Shown here in pieces: positions 48,247 through 60,534 of a stretch of 64,000 nucleotides of DNA. Within the stretch, counting starts at the first letter, position 1. Every line of letters starts with the position of its first letter. Where the stretch lies: the NCBI RefSeq assembly GCF_024223415.1, contig NZ_CP100500.1. One strand, written 5' to 3'. Origin of the DNA: Escherichia coli. GTDB lineage: Bacteria; Pseudomonadota; Gammaproteobacteria; Enterobacterales; Enterobacteriaceae. The position numbers were made by a program, and so were the translations under genes. The notes under the pieces were generated by a model. That model was not told the origin of the DNA. It saw only the letters and a list, made by a program, of their open reading frames with translations, and did no database searches.

Positions 48247-48662
48247 GTTTTGCCCTGAAACTGGCGCGTGAGATGGGGCGACCCGACTGGCGCGCCATGC
48301 TTGCCGGGATGTCATCCACGGAGTATGCCGACTGGCACCGCTTTTACAGTACCCATTATTTTCATGATGTTCTGCTGGATATGCACTTTTCCGGGCTGAC
48401 GTACACCGTGCTCAGCCTGTTTTTCAGCGATCCGGATATGCATCCGCTGGATTTCAGTCTGCTGAACCGGCGCGAGGCTGACGAAGAGCCTGAAGATGAT
48501 GTGCTGATGCAGAAAGCGGCAGGGCTTGCCGGAGGCGTCCGCTTTGGCCCGGACGGGAATGAAGTTATCCCTGCATCCCCGGATGTGGCGGACATGACGG
48601 AGGATGACGTAATGCTGATGACAGTATCAGAAGGGATCGCAGGAGGAGTCCGGTATGGCTGA
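47824..48662 (+). CDS. GT: G-T fusion product via programmed -1 frameshift
   Basis: Slippery GGGAAAG at 48222..48228; the -1 frame continues as track ORF 48228..48662 (T). Confidence 0.7.
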
Positions 48663-51216
48663 ACCGGTAGGCGATCTGGTCGTTGATTTAAGTCTGGATG
48701 CGGCCAGGTTTGACGAGCAGATGGCCAGAGTCAGGCGTCATTTTTCCGGTACGGAAAGTGATGCGAAAAAAACAGCGGCAGTCGTTGAACAGTCAATGAA
48801 CCGGCAGGCGCTGGCTGCACAGAAAGCGGGGATTTCCGTCGGACAGTATAAAGCCGCCATGCGTATGCTGCCTGCACAGTTCACCGACGTGGCCACACAG
48901 CTTGCAGGCGGGCAGAGTCCGTGGCTGATCCTGCTGCAACAGGGTGGTCAGGTGAAGGACTCCTTCGGCGGGATGATCCCCATGTTCAGGGGGCTTGCCG
49001 GTGCGATCACCCTGCCGATGGTCGGGGCCACCTCGCTGGCGGTGGCGACCGGTGCGCTGGCGTATGCCTGGTATCAGGGCAACTCAACCCTGTCCGATTT
49101 CAACAAAACGCTGGTCCTTTCCGGCAATCAGGCGGGACTGACGGCAGATCGTATGCTGGTCCTGTCCAGAGCCGGGCAGGCGGCAGGGCTGACGTTTAAC
49201 CAGACCAGCGAGTCACTCAGCGCACTGGTTAAGGCGGGGGTAAGCGGTGAGGCTCAGATTGCGTCCATCAGCCAGAGTGTGGCGCGTTTCTCCTCTGCAT
49301 CCGGCGTGGAGGTGGACAAGGTCGCTGAAGCCTTCGGGAAGCTGACCACAGACCCGACGTCGGGGCTGACGGCGATGGCGCGCCAGTTCCATAACGTGAC
49401 GGCGGAGCAGATTGCGTATGTTGCTCAGTTGCAGCGTTCCGGCGATGAGGCAGGGGCATTGCAGGCGGCGAACGAGGCCGCAACGAAAGGGTTTGATGAC
49501 CAGACCCGCCGCCTGAAAGAGAACATGGGCACGCTGGAAACCTGGGCAGACAGGACAGCACGGGCATTCAAATCCATGTGGGATGCGGTGCTGGATACTG
49601 GTCGTCCTGATACCGCGCAGGAGATGCTGATTAAGGCAGAGGCCGCGTTTAAGAAAGCGGACGATATCTGGAATCTGCGCAAGGATGATTATTTTGTTAA
49701 CGATGAAGCGCGGGCGCGTTACTGGGATGATCGTGAAAAGGCCCGTCTTGCGCTTGAAGCCGCCCGAAAGAAGGCTGAGCAGCAGAGTCAACAGGACAAA
49801 AATGCGCAGCAGCAGAGCGATACCGAAGCGTCACGGCTGAAATATACCGAAGAGGCGCAGAAGGCTTACGAACGCCTGCAGACACCGCTGGAGAAATATA
49901 CCGCCCGTCAGGAAGAACTGAACAAGGCACTGAAAGACGGAAAAATCCTGCAGGCAGATTACAACACGCTGATGGCGGCGGCGAAAAAGGATTATGAAGC
50001 GACGCTGAAAAAGCCGAAACAGTCCGGCGTGAAGGTGTCTGCGGGCGATCGTCAGGAAGACAGTGCTCATGCCGCCCTGCTGACGCTTCAGGCAGAACTC
50101 CGGACGCTGGAGAAGCATGCCGGAGCAAATGAGAAAATCAGCCAGCAGCGCCGGGATTTGTGGAAGGCGGAGAGTCAGTTCGCGGTACTGGAGGAGGCGG
50201 CGCAACGTCGCCAGCTGTCTGCACAGGAGAAATCCCTGCTGGCGCATAAAGATGAGACGCTGGAGTACAAACGCCAGCTGGCTGCACTTGGCGACAAGGT
50301 TACGTATCAGGAGCGCCTGAACGCGCTGGCGCAGCAGGCGGATAAATTCGCACAGCAGCAACGGGCAAAACGGGCCGCCATTGATGCGAAAAGCCGGGGG
50401 CTGACTGACCGGCAGACAGAACGGGAAGCCACGGAACAGCGCCTGAAGGAACAGTATGGCGATAATCCGCTGGCGCTGAATAACGTCATGTCAGAGCAGA
50501 AAAAGACCTGGGCGGCTGAAGACCAGCTTCGCGGGAACTGGATGGCAGGCCTGAAGTCCGGCTGGAGTGAGTGGGAAGAGAGCGCCACGGACAGTATGTC
50601 GCAGGTAAAAAGTGCAGCCACGCAGACCTTTGATGGAATTGCACAGAATATGGCGGCGATGCTGACCGGCAGTGAGCAGAACTGGCGCAGCTTCACCCGT
50701 TCCGTGCTGTCCATGATGACAGAAATTCTGCTTAAGCAGGCAATGGTGGGGATTGTCGGGAGTATCGGCAGCGTCATTGGCGGTGCTGCCGGTGGTGGCG
50801 CATCAGTGTCAGGCGGTACAGCCATTCAGGCTGCTGCGGCAAAATTCCATTTTGCGACCGGGGGATTTACGGGAACCGGCGGCAAATATGAGCCAGCGGG
50901 GATTGTTCACCGTGGTGAGTTTGTCTTCACGAAGGAGGCAACCAGCCGGATTGGCGTGGGAAATCTCTACCGGCTGATGCGCGGCTATGCCACTGGTGGT
51001 TATGTCGGTGGCACCGGAAGTCCGGCACAAATGCGGCGTTCAGAGGGTATCAGGTTTGAGCAGAACAACAACGTGGTGATTCAGAACGACGGTACGAATG
51101 GTCTGCCAGGTCCACAGATGCTGAAGGCGGTGTATGACATGGCCCGCAAGGGTGCCCGTGATGAAATTCAGACACAGATGCGTGATGGTGGTCTGTTCTC
51201 CGGAGGTGGACGATGA
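48655..51216 (+). CDS. H: tail tape measure protein H
   Basis: 853-aa alpha-helical protein in the gpH position. Confidence 0.9.
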   Translation: MAEPVGDLVVDLSLDAARFDEQMARVRRHFSGTESDAKKTAAVVEQSMNRQALAAQKAGISVGQYKAAMRMLPAQFTDVATQLAGGQSPWLILLQQGGQVKDSFGGMIPMFRGLAGAITLPMVGATSLAVATGALAYAWYQGNSTLSDFNKTLVLSGNQAGLTADRMLVLSRAGQAAGLTFNQTSESLSALVKAGVSGEAQIASISQSVARFSSASGVEVDKVAEAFGKLTTDPTSGLTAMARQFHNVTAEQIAYVAQLQRSGDEAGALQAANEAATKGFDDQTRRLKENMGTLETWADRTARAFKSMWDAVLDTGRPDTAQEMLIKAEAAFKKADDIWNLRKDDYFVNDEARARYWDDREKARLALEAARKKAEQQSQQDKNAQQQSDTEASRLKYTEEAQKAYERLQTPLEKYTARQEELNKALKDGKILQADYNTLMAAAKKDYEATLKKPKQSGVKVSAGDRQEDSAHAALLTLQAELRTLEKHAGANEKISQQRRDLWKAESQFAVLEEAAQRRQLSAQEKSLLAHKDETLEYKRQLAALGDKVTYQERLNALAQQADKFAQQQRAKRAAIDAKSRGLTDRQTEREATEQRLKEQYGDNPLALNNVMSEQKKTWAAEDQLRGNWMAGLKSGWSEWEESATDSMSQVKSAATQTFDGIAQNMAAMLTGSEQNWRSFTRSVLSMMTEILLKQAMVGIVGSIGSVIGGAAGGGASVSGGTAIQAAAAKFHFATGGFTGTGGKYEPAGIVHRGEFVFTKEATSRIGVGNLYRLMRGYATGGYVGGTGSPAQMRRSEGIRFEQNNNVVIQNDGTNGLPGPQMLKAVYDMARKGARDEIQTQMRDGGLFSGGGR

Positions 51217-52244: not shown

Positions 52245-52988
52245 ATGACAGAGACAGAATCAGCGATTCTGGCGCACGCCCGGCGATGTGCGCCAGCGGA
52301 GTCGTGCGGCTTCGTGGTGAGAGCGCCGGAGGGGGAAAGATATTTCCCCTGCGTGAATATCTCCGGTGAGCCGGAGGCGTATTTCCGGATGTCGCCGGAG
52401 GACTGGCTGCAGGCAGAGATGCAGGGTGAGATTGTGGCGCTGGTCCACAGTCACCCCGGTGGTCTGCCCTGGCTGAGTGAGGCCGACCGGCGGCTGCAGG
52501 TGCAGAGTGATTTGCCGTGGTGGCTGGTCTGCCGGGGGGCGATTCACAAGTTCCGCTGTGTGCCGCATCTCACCGGGCGGTGCTTTGAGCACGGGGTGAC
52601 GGACTGTTACACGCTGTTCCGGGATGCTTACCATCTGGCGGGAATTGAGATGCCGGATTTTCATCGCGGGGATGACTGGTGGCGTAACGGTCAGAATCTC
52701 TATCTTGACAATATGGAGGCGACTGGTTTTTACCGTGTCGCACTGACAGAGGCGCAGCCCGGCGACGTGCTGCTGTGCTGTTTTGGTTCATCGGTGCCGA
52801 ATCATGCCGCCATTTACTGCGGCGACGGCGGGCTGCTGCACCATATTCCTGAACAACTGAGCAAACGAGAGAGGTATACCGACAAATGGCAGCGACGCAC
52901 ACACTCCCTCTGGCGTCACCGGGCATGGCACGCATCTGCCTTTACGGGGATTTGCAACGATTTGGCCGCCGCATCGACCTTCGTGTGA
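52245..52988 (+). CDS. K: tail assembly protein K (JAB/MPN + NlpC/P60-like)
   Basis: MTETESAILAHARRCAPAESCGFVV...HSHPGG (JAMM-like motif); lambda gpK-like. Confidence 0.85.
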   Translation: MTETESAILAHARRCAPAESCGFVVRAPEGERYFPCVNISGEPEAYFRMSPEDWLQAEMQGEIVALVHSHPGGLPWLSEADRRLQVQSDLPWWLVCRGAIHKFRCVPHLTGRCFEHGVTDCYTLFRDAYHLAGIEMPDFHRGDDWWRNGQNLYLDNMEATGFYRVALTEAQPGDVLLCCFGSSVPNHAAIYCGDGGLLHHIPEQLSKRERYTDKWQRRTHSLWRHRAWHASAFTGICNDLAAASTFV

Positions 52989-53533
52989 AAACGGGAGCCG
53001 AAGCCATCCGGGCGCTGGCCACGCAGCTCCCTGCGTTTCGTCAGAAACTGAGCGACGGCTGGTATCAGGTGCGTATTGCCGGGCGTGATACAGGCGAAAA
53101 CGAATTATCAGCCCGTCTTAATGAACCGCTGGCAAATGGTGCCGTGATCCACATCGTGCCGCGTCTGGCGGGAGCCAAACGTGGTGGTGTGTTTCAGGCA
53201 GTGCTGGGCGCGGCGCTGATTGCGGTGGCATGGTGGAACCCTGCAGGCTGGCTGGGGGCTGCGGCTTTATCGGGCATGTATGCGGCAGGGGCCAGTATGG
53301 TGCTCGGTGGTGTGGCGCAGATGCTGGCACCGAAAGCCAAAACCCCCCGCACACAGACAACGGATAACGGCAAACAGAACACCTATTTTTCTTCACTGGA
53401 TAACATGGTTGCCCAGGGGAATGCTCTGCCCGTTCTGTACGGTGAAATGCGCGTGGGGTCACGGGTAATTTCGCAGGAGATCAGCACAGCGGATGAGGGG
53501 GATGGCGTCCGGGTTGTGGTGATTGGTCGCTGA
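52886..53533 (+). CDS. I: tail assembly protein I
   Basis: MAATHTLPLASPGMARICLYGDLQRFGRRIDLRVKTG...; lambda gpI-like; overlaps the K 3' end. Confidence 0.85.
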   Translation: MAATHTLPLASPGMARICLYGDLQRFGRRIDLRVKTGAEAIRALATQLPAFRQKLSDGWYQVRIAGRDTGENELSARLNEPLANGAVIHIVPRLAGAKRGGVFQAVLGAALIAVAWWNPAGWLGAAALSGMYAAGASMVLGGVAQMLAPKAKTPRTQTTDNGKQNTYFSSLDNMVAQGNALPVLYGEMRVGSRVISQEISTADEGDGVRVVVIGR

Positions 53534-53593: not shown

Positions 53594-56500
53594 ATGGGTA
53601 AAGGCAGCAGTAAGGGGCATACCCCGCGCGAAGCGAAGGACAACCTGAAGTCCACGCAGTTGCTGAGTGTGATCGATGTCATCAGCGAAGGGCCGATACA
53701 AGGACCGGTGGATGGATTAAAAAGCGTGCTGCTGAACGGTACGCCGGTGCTGGACAGTGAGGGGAATACCAATATATCCGGCGTCACGGTGGTATTCCGG
53801 GCCGGTGAGCAGGAGCAGACGCCGCCGGAGGGATTTGAATCCTCCGGCTCCGAGACGGTGCTGGGTACGGAAGTGAAGTACGACACGCCGATTACCCGGA
53901 CCATCACGTCGGCAAACATCGACCGTCTGCGCCTGACCTTCGGTGTGCAGGCACTGGTGGAAACCACCTCAAAGGGGGACCGGAATCCGTCGGAAGTCCG
54001 CCTGCTGGTTCAGATACAGCGTAACGGTCGCTGGTTAACGGAAAAAGACATCACCATTAAGGGCAAAACCACTTCACAGTATCTGGCTTCGGTGGTGGTG
54101 GATAACCTGCCGCCGCGCCCGTTCAGTATCCGGATGCGCAGGATGACACCGGACAGCACCACAGACCAGCTGCAGAACAAAACGCTCTGGTCGTCATACA
54201 CCGAAATCATCGATGTGAAACAGTGCTACCCGAACACGGCACTGGTCGGTGTGCAGGTGGATTCGGAGGAGTTCGGCAGCCAGCAGGTGAGCCGTAATTA
54301 TCATTTTCGCGGGCGCATTCTGCAGGTGCCGTCGAACTATAACCCGCAGACGCGGCAATACAGCGGTATCTGGGACGGAACGTTTAAACCGGCATACAGC
54401 GATAACCCGGCCTGGTGTCTGTGGGATATGCTGACCCACCCGCGCTACGGCATGGGGAAACGTGTTGGCGCAGCGGATGTGGACAAATGGGCGCTGTATG
54501 TCATCGGCCAGTACTGCGACCAGTCGGTGCCGGACGGCTCTGGTGGCACGGAGCCGCGCATCACCTGTAATGCCTGGCTGACCAGGCAGCGTAAGGCGTG
54601 GGATGTGCTCAGTGATTTCTGCTCGGCGATGCGCTGTATGCCGGTATGGAACGGGCAGACGCTGACGTTCGTGCAGGACCGACCGTCGGATAAGGTGTGG
54701 ACCTATAACCGCAGTAATGTGGTGATGCCGGATGATGGCGCGCCGTTCCGCTACAGCTTCAGCGCCCTGAAGGACCGCCATAATGCCGTTGAGGTGAACT
54801 GGAGTGACCCGGATAACGGCCAGGAGACGGCGACAGAGCTTGTGGAGGACACGCAGGCCATTGCCCGTTACGGTCGTAACGTCACGAAGATGGATGCCTT
54901 TGGCTGTACCAGCCGGGGGCAGGCACACCGCGCCGGGCTGTGGCTGATTAAAACGGAGCTGCTGGAAACGCAGACCGTGGACTTCAGCGTGGGTGCCGAA
55001 GGGCTTCGCCATGTGCCGGGCGATGTCATTGAAATCTGTGATGATGACTATGCCGGTATCAGCACCGGTGGGCGCGTGCTGGCGGTGAACAGCCAGACCC
55101 GGACGCTGACGCTCGATCGTGAAATCACGCTGCCATCCTCCGGTACCACGCTGATAAGCCTGGTTGACGGAAGTGGCAATCCGGTCAGCGTGGAGGTTCA
55201 GTCCGTCACTGACGGCGTGAAGGTGAAAGTGAGCAGTGTTCCTGACGGCGTTGCTGAATACAGCGTGTGGGGGCTGAAGCTGCCGACGCTGCGCCAGCGC
55301 CTGTTCCGCTGCGTGAGTATCCGTGAGAACGACGACGGCACGTATGCCATCACTGCCGTGCAGCATGTACCGGAAAAAGAGGCCATCGTGGATAACGGGG
55401 CGCACTTTGACGGCGACCAGAGCGGAACGGTGAATGGTGTCACGCCGCCAGCGGTGCAGCACCTGACCGCAGAAGTCACCGCAGACAGCGGGGAATATCA
55501 GGTGCTGGCGCGCTGGGACACGCCGAAGGTGGTGAAGGGCGTGAGCTTCCTGCTTCGCCTGACCGTGGCAGCGGATGACGGCAGTGAGCGGCTGGTCAGC
55601 ACGGCCCGGACGACGGAAACCACATACCGCTTCAGGCAACTGGCGCTGGGGCGTTACACGCTGACGGTCCGGGCGGTAAATGCCCGGGGGCAGCAGGGAG
55701 ACCCGGCGTCGGTATCGTTCCGGATTGCCGCACCGGCAGCGCCGTCGCGGATTGAGCTGACGCCGGGCTATTTTCAGATAACCGCCACGCCGCATCTTGC
55801 GGTTTACGATCCGACGGTACAGTTTGAGTTCTGGTTTTCGGAAAAGCGGATTACCGATATCAGGCAGGTTGAAACCACAGCCCGTTATCTTGGTACCGGA
55901 AGGCAGTGGCTTGTCTCCGGCCAGAATATTAAACCTGGCCATGATTATTACTTTTATATCCGCAGTGTTAACACTGTCGGTAAATCGGCATTCGTGGAGG
56001 CAGTCGGTCGGGCGAGTAATGATCCTGCCGGTTACCTTAATTTTTTCAGGGGGGCGATAAATAAAACGCATCTGGGACGGGAGATCAATGAACGCATTGA
56101 TGCCTCTGCACGGCGCACTGAAGTTGAGCAACTGGAGAATGCGATTAACCGCGAAATGACGCAGCTGGAGAAAGATGTGAGGCAGCGTGCGGAGCGTGAT
56201 ATCGCAGAGGTGACGAAAAAAATCACGGCGTCTGAAAACAGCATAACGGAACTGGTGGCGAAAAAGAGCGGTGAACAGTCAATGGCCATTGCGGAAGTTG
56301 ACAGAAAAGTTGACAGGATGGGAAGCGAAATCCGGCAGACAGTAAGCAGGAGCACGGAGGAGAACAGCCGACAGATAGCGCAGATCAGACAGTATGTTGA
56401 TGATAAGGGAAGTCAGATCACACAGAGCACGGATAAAAAACTGGGATCCTGGAATGCCAGCATTGAGCAGATACAGAAAGTTCAGGAGGACACGCGCCGG

Positions 56501-57325
56501 AACCTGAACAGCATGTGGGCTGTGAAGCTGCAGCAGACACGGGATGGACGTCTCTATATTGCAGGTATTGGTGCCGGAATCGAAAATACGTCTGACGGAA
56601 TTCAGAGTCAGATCCTGATGCAGGCAGATCGTATTGCGATGATTAACCCGGAAAATGGCAATACAACACCTTTGTTTGTAGCTCAGGGTGATCAGCTGTT
56701 CATGAATGATGTTTTCATGAAGCGACTGTTTGCGGTGAGTATCACCTCATCCGGCAATCCCCCGGCATTTTCCCTGACACCGGACGGGCGTCTGACGGCG
56801 AAAAATGTCGATATCAGTGGTAACGTGAATGCGAATTCGGGCTCGCTCAACAACGTCACGATTAACGAGAACTGTCGGGTTCTGGGAAAACTGTCTGCAA
56901 ACCAGATTGAAGGCGATCTCGTTAAAACAGTGGGTAAGGCTTTCCCCCGTGACTCCCGTGCACCGGAGACGTGGCCATCAGGGACCATTACCGTCAGGGT
57001 TTATGACGATCAGCCGTTTGACCGGCAAATTGTTATTCCAGCGGTGGCTTTCAGGGGGGCCAGACATCCGCGGAAGGATAAGGAGCCTTATTCGTCATGC
57101 CGCCTGATAGTGAAGAAAAACGGGGCTGAAATTTATAACCGAACGGCTCTGGATAATACGCTGATATACACGGGTGTTATTGATATGCCTGCAGGCAGTG
57201 GCGTAATGACACTGGAGTTTTCGGTATCAGCATGGTGGGTAAATGGCTGGTATCCCTCAGCAAGTATCAGCGATTTGCTGGTTGTTGTGATGAAGAAAGC
57301 CACTGCAGGCATCACGATTAGCTGA
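53594..57325 (+). CDS. J: host specificity / central tail fibre protein J
   Basis: [37 protein letters not shown]...; 1243 aa; lambda gpJ-like over most of its length, with a divergent coiled-coil segment near residues ~820-1000. Confidence 0.9.
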
Positions 57326-57383
57326 ATTTTATAACCCAGATACGGGCGCCAGAAATGGCGCCTTTTTTATTTGTGGAGCGAGT

Positions 57384-59198
57384 ATGGCGGCTGTAAAAAT
57401 TTCAGGCGTGCTGAGGGACGGAACCGGAAAACCGGTACCGGGATGCATTATTGAGCTGAAAGCGAAGAGAACCAGCGAGACAGTCATCGCCACGACAGTG
57501 GCTTATGGCATGCCGGAAGAGACGGGGAGTTACAGTATGGATGTGGAGCCAGGAATATACAGGGTGACACTCAATACAGAAGGTTACCGTCCTTCGTATG
57601 TGGGAGATATCGTGGTCAGGGAGGATTCTTCACCGGGAACACTGAATAAATTTCTGATGGAGATGGAAGATGCTCCTTATTATCCGAAGGCGTTGTCAGA
57701 GCTGGAGGCTGTGGTGCAGTCCATACTGCACAGAGCAGAGTCCGCGGCATCTGAGGCGGAGGAAGCCCGGAAACGAGCTGCATCTGCCCGGGGACCACGA
57801 GGAGAGAAAGGGGATACTGGTGCTCGTGGTGAAAGAGGCATTACCGGGCCACAGGGGCCAAAAGGTGAAACAGGAGCACGTGGCCCGGCAGGACCACAGG
57901 GACCAAAAGGTGAAACAGGTGAACGCGGTCCGGCAGGTCCACAGGGACTAAAGGGCGATACAGGTGAACGCGGCCCGGCAGGTCCACAGGGACCAAAGGG
58001 TGAAACAGGTGCACGCGGCCCGGCAGGTCCACAGGGAGCAAAGGGCGAAACAGGTGAACGCGGCCCGGCAGGTCCACAGGGAGCAAAGGGCGAAACAGGT
58101 GCACGTGGTCCGGAAGGCCCTCAGGGTCTGAAGGGAGAAAAGGGTGAGCGAGGAGAAAAAGGCCCTAAGGGGGATAAAGGAGATCCGGGAGGTCCACAGG
58201 GACCAAAGGGGGATACAGGTGAACGCGGCCCGGCAGGTCCACAGGGATCAAAGGGCGATACAGGTGAACGTGGCCCGGCAGGTCCTCAGGGACCAAAGGG
58301 GGATACAGGTGAACGTGGCCCGGAAGGTCCACAGGGAGCAAAGGGTGAAACAGGTGAACGCGGCCCGGCAGGACCACAGGGACCAAAAGGTGAAACAGGT
58401 GAACGCGGTCCGACAGGTCCACAGGGAGCAAAAGGTGAAACAGGAGCACGCGGTCCGGCAGGTCCTCAGGGACCAAGAGGAGAGTCAGCCCGTGGACAAC
58501 TGCTGAATGGTGATCTGAACCGACTGGGACGAGTGACCGATCAGGGTGATTATTATCAGCCATCAGACAGTGGGGCTACACGAGAAAATAATTATCCGAT
58601 TCAGAGAGCGGGTTATCTTCAGGTAAGAGTTGGTGCATGGGGATATTGCCAGCATGAATATACAACCTGGAACCCACCACGAAAGTTCGTAAGAACTGTT
58701 ACTGGTAATTTTACCGGTAATGGCCCCTGGTCTGAATGGAAAGAGCTGGGAGCCCAGGGGGAGCGTGGTCCACAGGGACCAAAAGGTGAAACAGGTGCAC
58801 GCGGTCCGGCAGGTCCACAGGGGCCAAGAGGGTATACAGGTGAACGCGGGCAGACAGGTCTACAGGGGCCAAGAGGGTATACAGGTGAACGCGGTCCGGC
58901 AGGTCCACAGGGGCCAAGAGGAGAAGCGGGGCGGCCAGCGAGCGTCGGAAGTGTTTATTCCGTGGGGTCTTATGTTCTGGGGATCATAGAACGAAATCAT
59001 GAGATAACAAATACCCGTCAAATACCCGGGTATCGTATCAGACAGGCCGTTATTGTGTCGTCGTCATCGGATAAACTTACAGATATCCGCTTTTTATTTG
59101 GCAATCCTATGCTTGGTACATGGATGTTATGCACAACTAACATGACGGTGAATAATATCATTGGGACGATTTGGGGCCTGTTTCAGAGAATACGGTGA
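57384..59198 (+). CDS. side tail fibre protein with collagen-like Gly-X-Y repeats
   Basis: Phage tail-fibre-like N-terminus then long (GxxGPxGxK/R)n collagen-like tracts ([16 protein letters not shown]...). Confidence 0.8.
57780..58930 (+). repeat. tandem DNA repeats encoding collagen-like triplets
   Basis: Repeated ~45-bp units (ggtgaaacaggtgaacgcggcccggcaggtccacagggaccaaaggg and variants). Confidence 0.75.
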
Positions 59199-59788: not shown

Positions 59789-60534
59789 AACTGATAAAAA
59801 AACCCCTCTGAAAATTCTGTCAGAGGGGGGCAAGGATCTATATTTATTATGCAGTAATGCTTTCACTCCGGTAATTAATTTCCGTGATTAACTGCTTTCG
59901 ATCAATAAAGGAATTGCAAAAAGGTGATCTTGTTCACGACATCGTGGATGATAATATGCCTGATGTCTGAATCCGGAAACAGTGATCTGGCGGGTTTCAT
60001 GTGAAGTTGACGGATAAAAAAATCCGCACGACCAGACAGACGTGCGGTTTACGAAATTCGTAACAAGAGGCTTTTCTACGGATCACGTGGTGCGTGCCAC
60101 GTGAAATTTTTGTAGCGCAAAATGTGTAATGTGTAAATACAAGGAAGGAAAAAGTTAAATCGGTGGAAGTCCATGCCTGCCACATGTATGTCTGCATTCC
60201 TCGTTTTGAACAGAATTCTCACCAGACATCGTGAATTTCTCATTCAATCATCAGAGATATTAACCAGGATTTTTATTGTTTTGTGATATCAGCAGTGCAG
60301 GTATACAGACATTAAAGTAATCAGGTTTATTATAACCACCTTTACAAAGTTGTATGTGTTTATAATTTAAGGATTTTAATCCCAGTCGTTTTCTGCTGCT
60401 TAAATTGAGGGCGCATATTATACACAATAATATTCCTGGCATTATTAAATTAATAAAAGAGGATTCTTATCACTGTATTTTTGCTCCGCACTACCGTTCT
60501 GGCTGGTGAAGTAATAATACAGGAGAATAACAGA

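What the first reader, a model, noticed from the sequence alone, without database searches (positions are those of the whole stretch)
56030..56560. Divergent coiled-coil segment in the J host-specificity protein
The J homologue is about 110 aa longer than lambda J as I recall it. Most of the protein tracks lambda J closely, but residues ~820-1000 form a charged, heptad-like segment ([47 protein letters not shown]...) that I cannot align to lambda J from memory. This could reflect a module swap affecting the tail tip. My lambda J recollection may be imperfect.
Basis: inference. Interest (0 to 1): 0.25.

Follow-up and report, generated by a model that had tools for sequence, protein, structure and literature searches.

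The report
Lengthened helical stalk in phage J fibre
The tail-tip protein J of this E. coli prophage has about 113 extra residues that lengthen the short helical stalk of its central tail fibre, a common, length-variable but little-discussed natural variant of an otherwise ordinary lambda-type protein.

Summary
The J homologue (window 53594-57325, 1243 aa) is 111 aa longer than lambda J. Residues 1-836 match lambda 1-836 (93%) and 954-1243 match lambda 841-1132 (52%). Residues 837-953 (nt 56102-56452) have no lambda counterpart.

The insert sits inside lambda's AHS helix bundle (lambda 809-861), between the second FNIII/Ig domain and the beta-prism shaft. It stretches that bundle from about 53 to about 166 residues. 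AlphaFold2 predicts one continuous helix (aa 826-935, or 826-972 without an alignment).

Its hydrophobic period is 3.64 residues (hendecad-like), not the heptad 3.5.

The stalk varies in length between alleles. A conserved motif spacing is 47 aa in lambda, 75 in a second class, 148 in CFT073/PhiR49_2, 159 here, and 217 and 228 in near-identical relatives. The 11-, 58- and 73-aa steps keep the helical phase.

The insert is under purifying selection (dN/dS about 0.15). Homologous DNA occurs in J genes of 735 of 5426 complete E. coli genomes.

Most likely it is a rigid coiled-coil extension adding about 16 nm of reach. A large pyocin-F7-type helix-to-beta fold switch is possible, but its sequence motif is absent. 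This is a modest variant of a known protein.

The parts
53594..57325 (+). J (tip attachment / central tail fibre) gene, 1243 aa. The exact protein is WP_254539407.1.
   Evidence: ORF list and translation. Pfam domains FNIII-A_GpJ, Phage-tail_3, Ig_J, Ig_J_second, Phage_Tail_Tip and Ig_GpJ_C are all above cut-off. Exact-sequence look-up.
53594..55843 (+). Lambda-like hub and FNIII part, aa 1-750.
   Evidence: 91-99% nucleotide identity to lambda J in 150-nt bins.
55739..56047 (+). Second Ig/FNIII domain (aa 716-818), immediately before the stalk. The mosaic junction with lambda lies inside it at about 55844.
   Evidence: Pfam Ig_J_second, 5e-40. Identity to lambda drops to 80% at aa 751-800.
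56018..56515 (+). Whole expanded AHS helical stalk, aa 809-974 (equivalent to lambda 809-861).
   Evidence: The flanks align to lambda 809-836 and 841-861. AHS domain limits are from PMC11101478. Helix is predicted by AF2.
56102..56452 (+). Insert relative to lambda J, aa 837-953 (net +113 aa).
   Evidence: No BLASTP alignment to lambda J. No Pfam family above cut-off. No PDB sequence match to these residues. Period 3.64, with 0 of 5000 shuffles reaching the observed power. dN/dS 0.15-0.17.
56069..56398 (+). Continuous alpha-helix predicted both with and without an alignment, aa 826-935 (about 110 residues, about 16 nm).
   Evidence: AF2 with a 29-sequence MSA gives helix at model residues 26-135, pLDDT mostly 70-90. 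AF2 on the single sequence gives helix at 26-172, pLDDT about 90.
56408..56509 (+). Zone with alternative predictions, aa 939-972: helix from the single sequence, beta-hairpins with the MSA. It includes the equivalent of lambda 841-861.
   Evidence: Lambda 841-861 is shown to convert from helix to beta on LamB binding (PMC11101478). The MSA model matches lambda open-state structures best.
56132..56164 (+). 33-nt unit ([11 protein letters not shown]) that is tandemly duplicated in the strain GF60 allele. It is flanked by CTGGAGAA.
   Evidence: DNA alignment A3; protein alignment.
56255..56280 (+). 26-nt sequence GTGGCGAAAAAGAGCGGTGAACAGTC marking the site of a 174-nt (58-aa) tandem unit. The unit is present in TUM1886, GF60 and DG351-2 and absent here.
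   Evidence: DNA alignment A3: apart from the 174-nt gap, a single mismatch to TUM1886 over the 561 aligned window bases.
56462..56845 (+). Beta-prism shaft (CSF), aa 957-1084.
   Evidence: Pfam Phage_Tail_Tip, 2e-28. Matches lambda CSF chains in the PDB.
56930..57322 (+). C-terminal Ig-like receptor-binding domain, aa 1113-1243. It is 89% identical to the CFT073/PhiR49_2 type.
   Evidence: Pfam Ig_GpJ_C, 1e-35. The best PDB match is 9wca 'A8 gpJ 713'. dS about 0.19.

Best explanation
The segment is the alpha-helical stalk (AHS) of the trimeric J central tail fibre. It has been expanded from about 53 residues in lambda to about 166 by roughly 113 extra residues.

Shown by analysis: the extra residues continue the lambda helix as a long amphipathic helix with a period of about 3.64 residues (hendecad-like). 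The stalk is a length-polymorphic module. Alleles differ by in-frame steps of 11, 58 and 73 aa that keep the helical phase. The two steps compared at DNA level (33 and 174 nt) begin at short direct repeats.

Inferred: three such helices form a nearly straight parallel coiled coil, because J is a trimer and lambda's AHS is a three-helix bundle. This bundle would move the beta-prism shaft and receptor-binding domain about 16-17 nm further from the tail tip (113 aa x 0.15 nm).

Inferred function: it acts as a rigid spacer that sets how far the receptor-binding tip reaches, for example through O-antigen or capsule to an outer-membrane protein. The lambda-type trigger, unwinding of the bundle's C-terminal end into beta strands on the shaft, is kept at aa about 939-974.
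For: Position and homology of the flanks. The AHS definition and its refolding in lambda come from PMC11101478.

Helix prediction: aa 826-935 with an MSA and 826-972 without one.

Periodicity: 3.64-3.67, with 0 of 5000 shuffles reaching the observed power.

Allelic series: the spacing between the GYLxFFxG and xxMWAVK motifs is 47, 75, 148, 159, 217 and 228 aa. Spectral power rises from 2.9 to 4.3 to 4.6 as the stalk lengthens, so the added units are in phase. The 174-nt unit begins with a 26-nt sequence that is repeated at the start of the next copy. The 33-nt unit begins with CTGGAGAA, which recurs directly after it.

Constraint: dN/dS is 0.15-0.17 in the insert, as in the rest of J.

Prevalence: homologous insert DNA lies in annotated J genes of 735 of 5426 complete E. 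coli genomes, including CFT073 and ATCC 25922. It also occurs in two sequenced phages with a named host, PhiR49_2 and PhiR40_1.

O-antigen screening of outer-membrane receptors is stated in the abstract of PMC10743462.
Against: The trimeric state and the added length are inferred, not measured. Only monomers could be modelled (pTM 0.30-0.36).

No data link stalk length to host surface type. Phages with short stalks also list ECOR13 as host.

In lambda the AHS is not a passive rod: it flips by about 180 degrees and refolds on receptor binding. A purely passive spacer role may therefore be too simple.

Synonymous sites are near saturation (dS 1.5-1.7), so dN/dS is approximate.
Confidence: 0.6

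Rival explanations
1. The expanded stalk is a metastable energy store like the one in the F7 pyocin central fibre. On receptor binding the whole coiled coil of about 166 residues would convert into extra layers of the beta-prism. That conversion would open the tail tip and help drive membrane penetration.
For: The stalk has the same position (between the last FNIII domain and the beta-prism) and almost the same size as the 163-residue switching segment of the F7 pyocin. The preprint predicts such switches in 21 of 24 siphophage central fibres (PMC12874032). The period of about 11 residues equals the length of the F7 motif. Lambda's own AHS partly converts to beta. AF2 gives helix or beta for aa 939-972 depending on alignment depth, and the MSA model matches lambda's open state best.
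Against: The motif SxSxxMxxLxS has 0 full matches in aa 809-975, against 1.2 expected. The same scan finds 11-12 matches against about 3 expected in distant Ala-rich J-like proteins. The insert is only 8.5% Ala. AF2 keeps aa 826-935 helical even with the alignment. The pyocin authors state that lambda does not show the extensive switch. My motif classes only approximate the paper's, and the models were monomers.
Confidence: 0.2
2. The extension is a tolerated, essentially neutral product of slippage or unequal recombination in a repetitive linker. Its exact length has no adaptive role.
For: Indels lie at direct repeats. Many lengths coexist among near-identical alleles. Lambda works with the shortest version.
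Against: dN/dS is about 0.15, so the sequence is constrained. The 11-, 58- and 73-aa steps fall within about 0.1 turn of a whole number of helical turns, and periodic power grows with length. Reading frames are intact in 735 genomes' annotated J genes.
Confidence: 0.12
3. The long helix bundle is a docking surface for another virion component, such as side-fibre tips or accessory tail-tip proteins.
For: The F7 pyocin has accessory proteins and side fibres arranged around its central fibre, and these are lost after the switch. The window has an unusual distal tail region: there is no lom gene, and the side fibre is collagen-like.
Against: No partner was identified. The same stalk occurs with different downstream gene sets: lom plus stf in DG351-2, and two small ORFs in TUM1886 and GF60.
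Confidence: 0.06

Closest known systems
Lambda gpJ AHS (alpha-helical segment, residues 809-861) of the central tail fibre (PDB 8jvm, 8xck, 8xcj; Ge & Wang 2024, PMC11101478)
   Same: The position between FNIII-2 and the beta-prism shaft is the same. The flanking sequences are homologous (GYLxFFxG...HLGxE and ...MWAVK). The C-terminal part is predicted to alternate between helix and beta, as is observed in lambda.
   Different: The segment is about three times longer (166 vs 53 aa). The added 113 aa have no sequence counterpart in lambda. The periodicity is hendecad-like. The shaft and receptor-binding domain beyond it are only 52% identical to lambda's.
F7 pyocin central fibre protein, 163-residue coiled coil that switches to a beta-prism (He et al. 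2026 preprint, PMC12874032)
   Same: It is a trimeric central fibre of a non-contractile tail. The coiled coil is of similar length and lies directly N-terminal to a beta-prism. The sequence period is 11 residues.
   Different: The SxSxxMxxLxS motif is not enriched here. The Ala content is low. AF2 does not predict beta for most of the insert. No direct sequence comparison with the F7 protein was made here.
J alleles of E. coli prophages and phages PhiR49_2 and PhiR40_1 (for example CFT073 WP_000514735.1, 1230 aa)
   Same: They carry a homologous long stalk (67% aa identity over the aligned residues of the insert, spacing 148 vs 159). Their receptor-binding domains are nearly the same (89% aa identity).
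   Different: They have 11 aa fewer in the stalk. dS of 1.5-1.7 indicates an old split between the stalk alleles, while the receptor-binding domains are recent relatives (dS about 0.19).
J alleles of strains TUM1886, GF60 and DG351-2
   Same: In the DNA aligned around the stalk (window 56000-56560) the TUM1886 and GF60 alleles are almost identical to the window (a single mismatch to TUM1886 outside the indels). DG351-2 differs at about 20 positions, mostly at the 5' end of that stretch.
   Different: They carry an extra 58-aa tandem unit, and GF60 a further 11-aa unit. TUM1886 and GF60 also replace the Ig-like receptor-binding domain with a short C-terminus followed by two small ORFs.

Membership tests
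Lambda-type tip attachment protein J (central tail fibre) | Full J domain set: FNIII-A_GpJ, Phage-tail_3, Ig_J, Ig_J_second, Phage_Tail_Tip, Ig_GpJ_C | tested here: met
   All six Pfam families score above their curated cut-offs.
Lambda-type tip attachment protein J (central tail fibre) | High sequence identity to lambda J over the hub and FNIII part | tested here: met
   93% identity over aa 1-836 without gaps.
Lambda-type tip attachment protein J (central tail fibre) | Gene position after the tape-measure and tail-assembly genes and before the side tail fibre | tested here: met
   TMP_2/Tape_meas_lam_C at 48655-51216, Lambda_tail_I at 52886-53533 and phage_tail_N at 57384-59198.
gpJ AHS helix bundle | Helical segment between FNIII-2 and the beta-prism shaft, with lambda-homologous ends | tested here: met
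   Flanks align to lambda 809-836 and 841-861. AF2 predicts helix.
gpJ AHS helix bundle | Three helices forming a parallel bundle in the virion | not testable with these tools
   Only monomer models were available. The trimer is inferred from the lambda structures.
Canonical heptad coiled coil | Hydrophobic periodicity of 3.5 residues | tested here: not met
   Power at 3.5 is 0.09, and 3053 of 5000 shuffles reach it. The peak is at 3.64, reached by 0 of 5000 shuffles.
F7-pyocin-type fold-switching coiled coil | Coiled coil directly N-terminal to a beta-prism seed in a central fibre protein | tested here: met
   The AHS is followed by the Phage_Tail_Tip beta region.
F7-pyocin-type fold-switching coiled coil | Repeated SxSxxMxxLxS pattern | tested here: not met
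   0 full matches against 1.2 expected. Positive controls P0145, P0148 and P0159 give 11-12 against about 3 expected.
F7-pyocin-type fold-switching coiled coil | Both helix and beta-prism predicted for the same residues at different alignment depths | tested here: inconclusive
   Only aa 939-972 differ between the two runs. Residues 826-935 are helical in both. Models were monomers and the MSA had 29 sequences.
F7-pyocin-type fold-switching coiled coil | Two experimentally observed states | not testable with these tools
   This needs cryo-EM of free and receptor-bound particles.

The most novel reading that the evidence does not exclude
[quoted passage not shown] This would contradict the view that lambda-like tails do not switch extensively. 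The natural series of stalk lengths (spacings 47, 75, 148, 159, 217, 228) would then be a tunable spring that sets the energy and reach of tail-tip opening.
Probability: 0.12. Interest if true: 0.6.

Novelty: new variant of a known kind. Interest (0 to 1): 0.3.

Why it matters
J decides which cells a lambda-type phage can infect, and its stalk is the part that refolds to open the tail after receptor binding. A natural series of otherwise near-identical J alleles that differ only in stalk length is a ready-made experiment. It could show how fibre length affects reach through surface polysaccharide and the triggering of DNA ejection. It could also show whether the fold-switch mechanism just described for F-type pyocins extends to classical coliphages. 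The stalk and the receptor-binding domain recombine independently, which is relevant to engineering phage host range. In itself the feature is a modest structural variant of a well-known protein.

Tried and rejected
- Tandem Repeats Finder and the repeat finder found no meaningful DNA repeats inside the window's own segment. The repeat nature only appears by comparison with relatives.
- BLASTP of the two halves of the insert against each other found no similarity.
- Pfam gave only sub-threshold coiled-coil noise for the segment, such as DUF1542, Prominin and Apolipoprotein.
- A PDB sequence search with the segment matched only the lambda-homologous ends. An apparent alignment of 9l9p through the insert did not recur when the segment was searched alone, so I did not count it as similarity to the insert.
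- The word-indexed protein search returned mostly short fragments of J genes from broken assemblies.
- The heptad coiled-coil reading is rejected by periodicity.
- A foreign-DNA insertion judged by composition is rejected. The GC drop from 0.61 to 0.50 starts near 55800, and lambda J shows the same low GC (0.47) in that bin.
- Antisense ORFs overlapping the segment (56032-56355 and 54194-56131, minus strand) lie wholly inside the J reading frame, whose codons are under purifying selection. I did not pursue them.
- Literature searches found no description of long-stalk J alleles.
- The receptor of this receptor-binding domain could not be identified. No paper on PDB entry 9wca ('A8 gpJ 713') is in the library.
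Full report
**What is there**

The finding lies in a 3732-nt ORF (window 53594-57325, + strand) encoding 1243 aa. Pfam finds the complete lambda J domain set: FNIII-A_GpJ, Phage-tail_3, Ig_J, Ig_J_second (aa 716-818), Phage_Tail_Tip (aa 957-1084) and Ig_GpJ_C (aa 1113-1243). No family covers aa 819-956.

The gene follows the tape-measure gene and a lambda I homologue and precedes a side tail fibre gene. The window is an E. coli chromosome segment (dld ... btsS) carrying a lambdoid prophage. The exact protein is already in NCBI as WP_254539407.1, 'phage attachment tail tip protein J'.

**Check of the observation**

Lambda J was fetched from NC_001416 (1132 aa). BLASTP gives three parts:
- aa 1-836 match lambda 1-836 at 93% identity, ungapped.
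- aa 954-1243 match lambda 841-1132 at 52% identity.
- Nothing aligns to aa 837-953.

The segment is 36% charged and has no proline. Its hydrophobic periodicity is 3.64-3.67, not 3.5. No shuffle out of 5000 reaches the observed power at 3.667, whereas 3053 of 5000 reach it at 3.5. 'Heptad-like' should therefore read 'hendecad-like'.

**Which part of J this is**

Ge & Wang (PMC11101478) divide the lambda fibre into FNIII domains, AHS, CSF and RBD. The AHS is a three-helix bundle at residues 809-861. The CSF is a beta-prism shaft, and the RBD is the receptor-binding domain.

On LamB binding, the lambda AHS flips and refolds. Residues 841-861 become beta strands on top of the CSF, which releases the FNIII domains and opens the tail tip.

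The insert sits exactly between lambda residues 836 and 841, inside the AHS. The AHS is thus expanded from about 53 to about 166 residues (aa 809-974, nt 56018-56515).

**Structure prediction**

I modelled aa 801-1100 with AlphaFold2 as a monomer in two ways:
- With a 29-sequence alignment, one helix spans aa 826-935 (pLDDT mostly 70-90) and beta hairpins begin at aa 939.
- With the single sequence, one helix spans aa 826-972 at pLDDT about 90.

Most of the insert is helical in both runs. Only aa 939-972, which includes the equivalent of lambda 841-861, alternates between helix and beta.

By Foldseek, the alignment-based model matches the lambda open-state fibre (8xcj and 8xci, E about 1e-13) better than the closed-state fibre (8xck and 9wca, E about 1e-7).

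A 110-residue helix is about 16 nm long. That the three chains form a coiled coil is inferred from the lambda structure, not modelled here.

**Length polymorphism**

I used the spacing between the conserved motifs GYLxFFxG and xxMWAVK as a ruler.

| Allele or class | Spacing (aa) |
|---|---|
| Lambda type | 47 |
| Second common class (17 of the 37 database representatives carrying both motifs) | 75 |
| CFT073 and PhiR49_2 | 148 |
| The window | 159 |
| TUM1886 and DG351-2 | 217 |
| GF60 | 228 |

At the DNA level, the window and the TUM1886 allele differ by one mismatch over the 561 aligned window bases, plus one clean 174-nt indel. The 174-nt unit begins with the 26-nt sequence GTGGCGAAAAAGAGCGGTGAACAGTC, and the same sequence follows the unit, at window 56255-56280.

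GF60 additionally duplicates the 33-nt unit at window 56132-56164. That unit begins with CTGGAGAA, and the same 8 nt follow it.

The steps of 11, 58 and 73 aa equal 3.0, 16.0 and 20.1 turns at 3.64 residues per turn. Periodic power rises from 2.9 to 4.3 to 4.6 as the stalk lengthens. The added units therefore stay in phase, as expected for a continuous coiled coil.

A database fragment (P0014) shows a further 29-aa (8.0-turn) duplication. That record also has an odd duplication elsewhere, so it counts as weak evidence.

**Constraint and mosaicism**

Against the CFT073 and PhiR49_2 alleles, the insert has dN/dS of 0.15-0.17, similar to the rest of J at 0.13-0.20. Because dS is 1.5-1.7, near saturation, the ratio is approximate.

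Nucleotide identity to lambda is 91-99% to aa 750, 80% at aa 751-800, and about 60% after aa 954.

The receptor-binding domain is a recent relative of the CFT073/PhiR49_2 type: 89% aa identity and dS about 0.19. The stalk and shaft are old splits, with dS of 1.0-1.7.

TUM1886 and GF60 join the same stalk to a short non-Ig C-terminus followed by two small ORFs. Stalk and receptor module therefore recombine independently.

**Prevalence**

DNA homologous to the insert core lies in annotated J genes of 735 of 5426 complete E. coli genomes, including CFT073 and ATCC 25922. The window's own allele (95% identity or more) occurs in 22 of them.

Among 50,697 phage records, only PhiR49_2 and PhiR40_1 carry the insert; both list ECOR13 as host.

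I found no paper describing these long-stalk alleles.

**How it most likely works**

The best-supported reading is a rigid coiled-coil extension of the AHS. It would place the shaft and receptor-binding domain about 16-17 nm further from the tail tip, with the lambda-type trigger retained at its C-terminal end.

A plausible use is reaching outer-membrane receptors through O-antigen or capsule, which are known to screen such receptors (abstract of PMC10743462). That functional step is inference.

**The main rival**

A January 2026 preprint (PMC12874032) reports that a 163-residue coiled coil at the same position in the F7 pyocin central fibre converts to a beta-prism and is needed for killing. 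It predicts similar switches in 21 of 24 siphophage fibres.

Size, position and the 11-residue period fit. However, the published motif SxSxxMxxLxS has no full match in aa 809-975, against 1.2 expected. The same scan finds 11-12 matches against about 3 expected in distant Ala-rich J-like proteins. AF2 also keeps aa 826-935 helical with the alignment.

I therefore rate the full switch at about 0.2. Neutral expansion and a docking role are less likely still, for the reasons given under the rival explanations.

**Verdict**

The feature is a common but undescribed length variant of a known domain in a known protein. It is of modest interest, mainly as a natural allelic series for testing how stalk length and refolding affect host reach and tail opening.

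Noticed in passing
L002:3695-8126 and L003:3695-8159 (relatives of window 53594-57325): The J alleles of strains TUM1886 and GF60 keep the same long stalk. About 80 aa after the conserved FMNDVFMK motif they end in a short non-Ig C-terminus, followed by two small hypothetical ORFs. This looks like an alternative receptor module, resembling the separate-RBP arrangement described for Dhillonvirus-type phages (PMC12309495).
   Followed up: partly
window 57325-57384: There is no lom gene between J and the side tail fibre gene. Lambda, CFT073, DG351-2 and PhiR49_2 all have lom at this position.
   Followed up: no
window 57384-59198: The side tail fibre protein (604 aa) has a prophage tail fibre N-terminal domain followed by collagen triple-helix repeats (Pfam Collagen, 6 stretches, E 5.5e-48).
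   Followed up: partly
window 60481-62160: Cargo genes sit at the right end of the prophage. One is a YadA-like trimeric autotransporter with a membrane anchor (matches PDB 2lme YadA at 1e-17). It is followed by a small protein with a sigma-70 region 4-like helix-turn-helix. The ORF lister begins the adhesin ORF at a TTG; the true start was not checked. The homologous gene in TUM1886 is annotated at 513 aa.
   Followed up: partly
window 56930-57322 versus 56018-56929: Within J, the receptor-binding domain is a recent relative of the CFT073/PhiR49_2 type (dS about 0.19). The stalk and shaft are anciently diverged from them (dS 1.0-1.7). This implies a recombination junction near aa 1112.
   Followed up: partly
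window 55750-56050: GC content drops from about 0.61 to about 0.50 within the J gene. Lambda J shows the same low GC (0.47) in the 150-nt bin where the drop begins, so this looks like a shared property of J genes rather than a sign of recent foreign DNA.
   Followed up: yes
window 54194-56131 (minus strand): A 645-aa antisense ORF with a TTG start lies entirely inside the J coding region. It is probably an accident of the GC-rich sense frame.
   Followed up: no
window 56408-56509 (aa 939-972): AlphaFold2 gives helix for this stretch from the single sequence and beta hairpins with an alignment. The alignment-based model resembles lambda's receptor-bound open state more than its closed state. 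This echoes the known refolding of lambda residues 841-861.
   Followed up: partly
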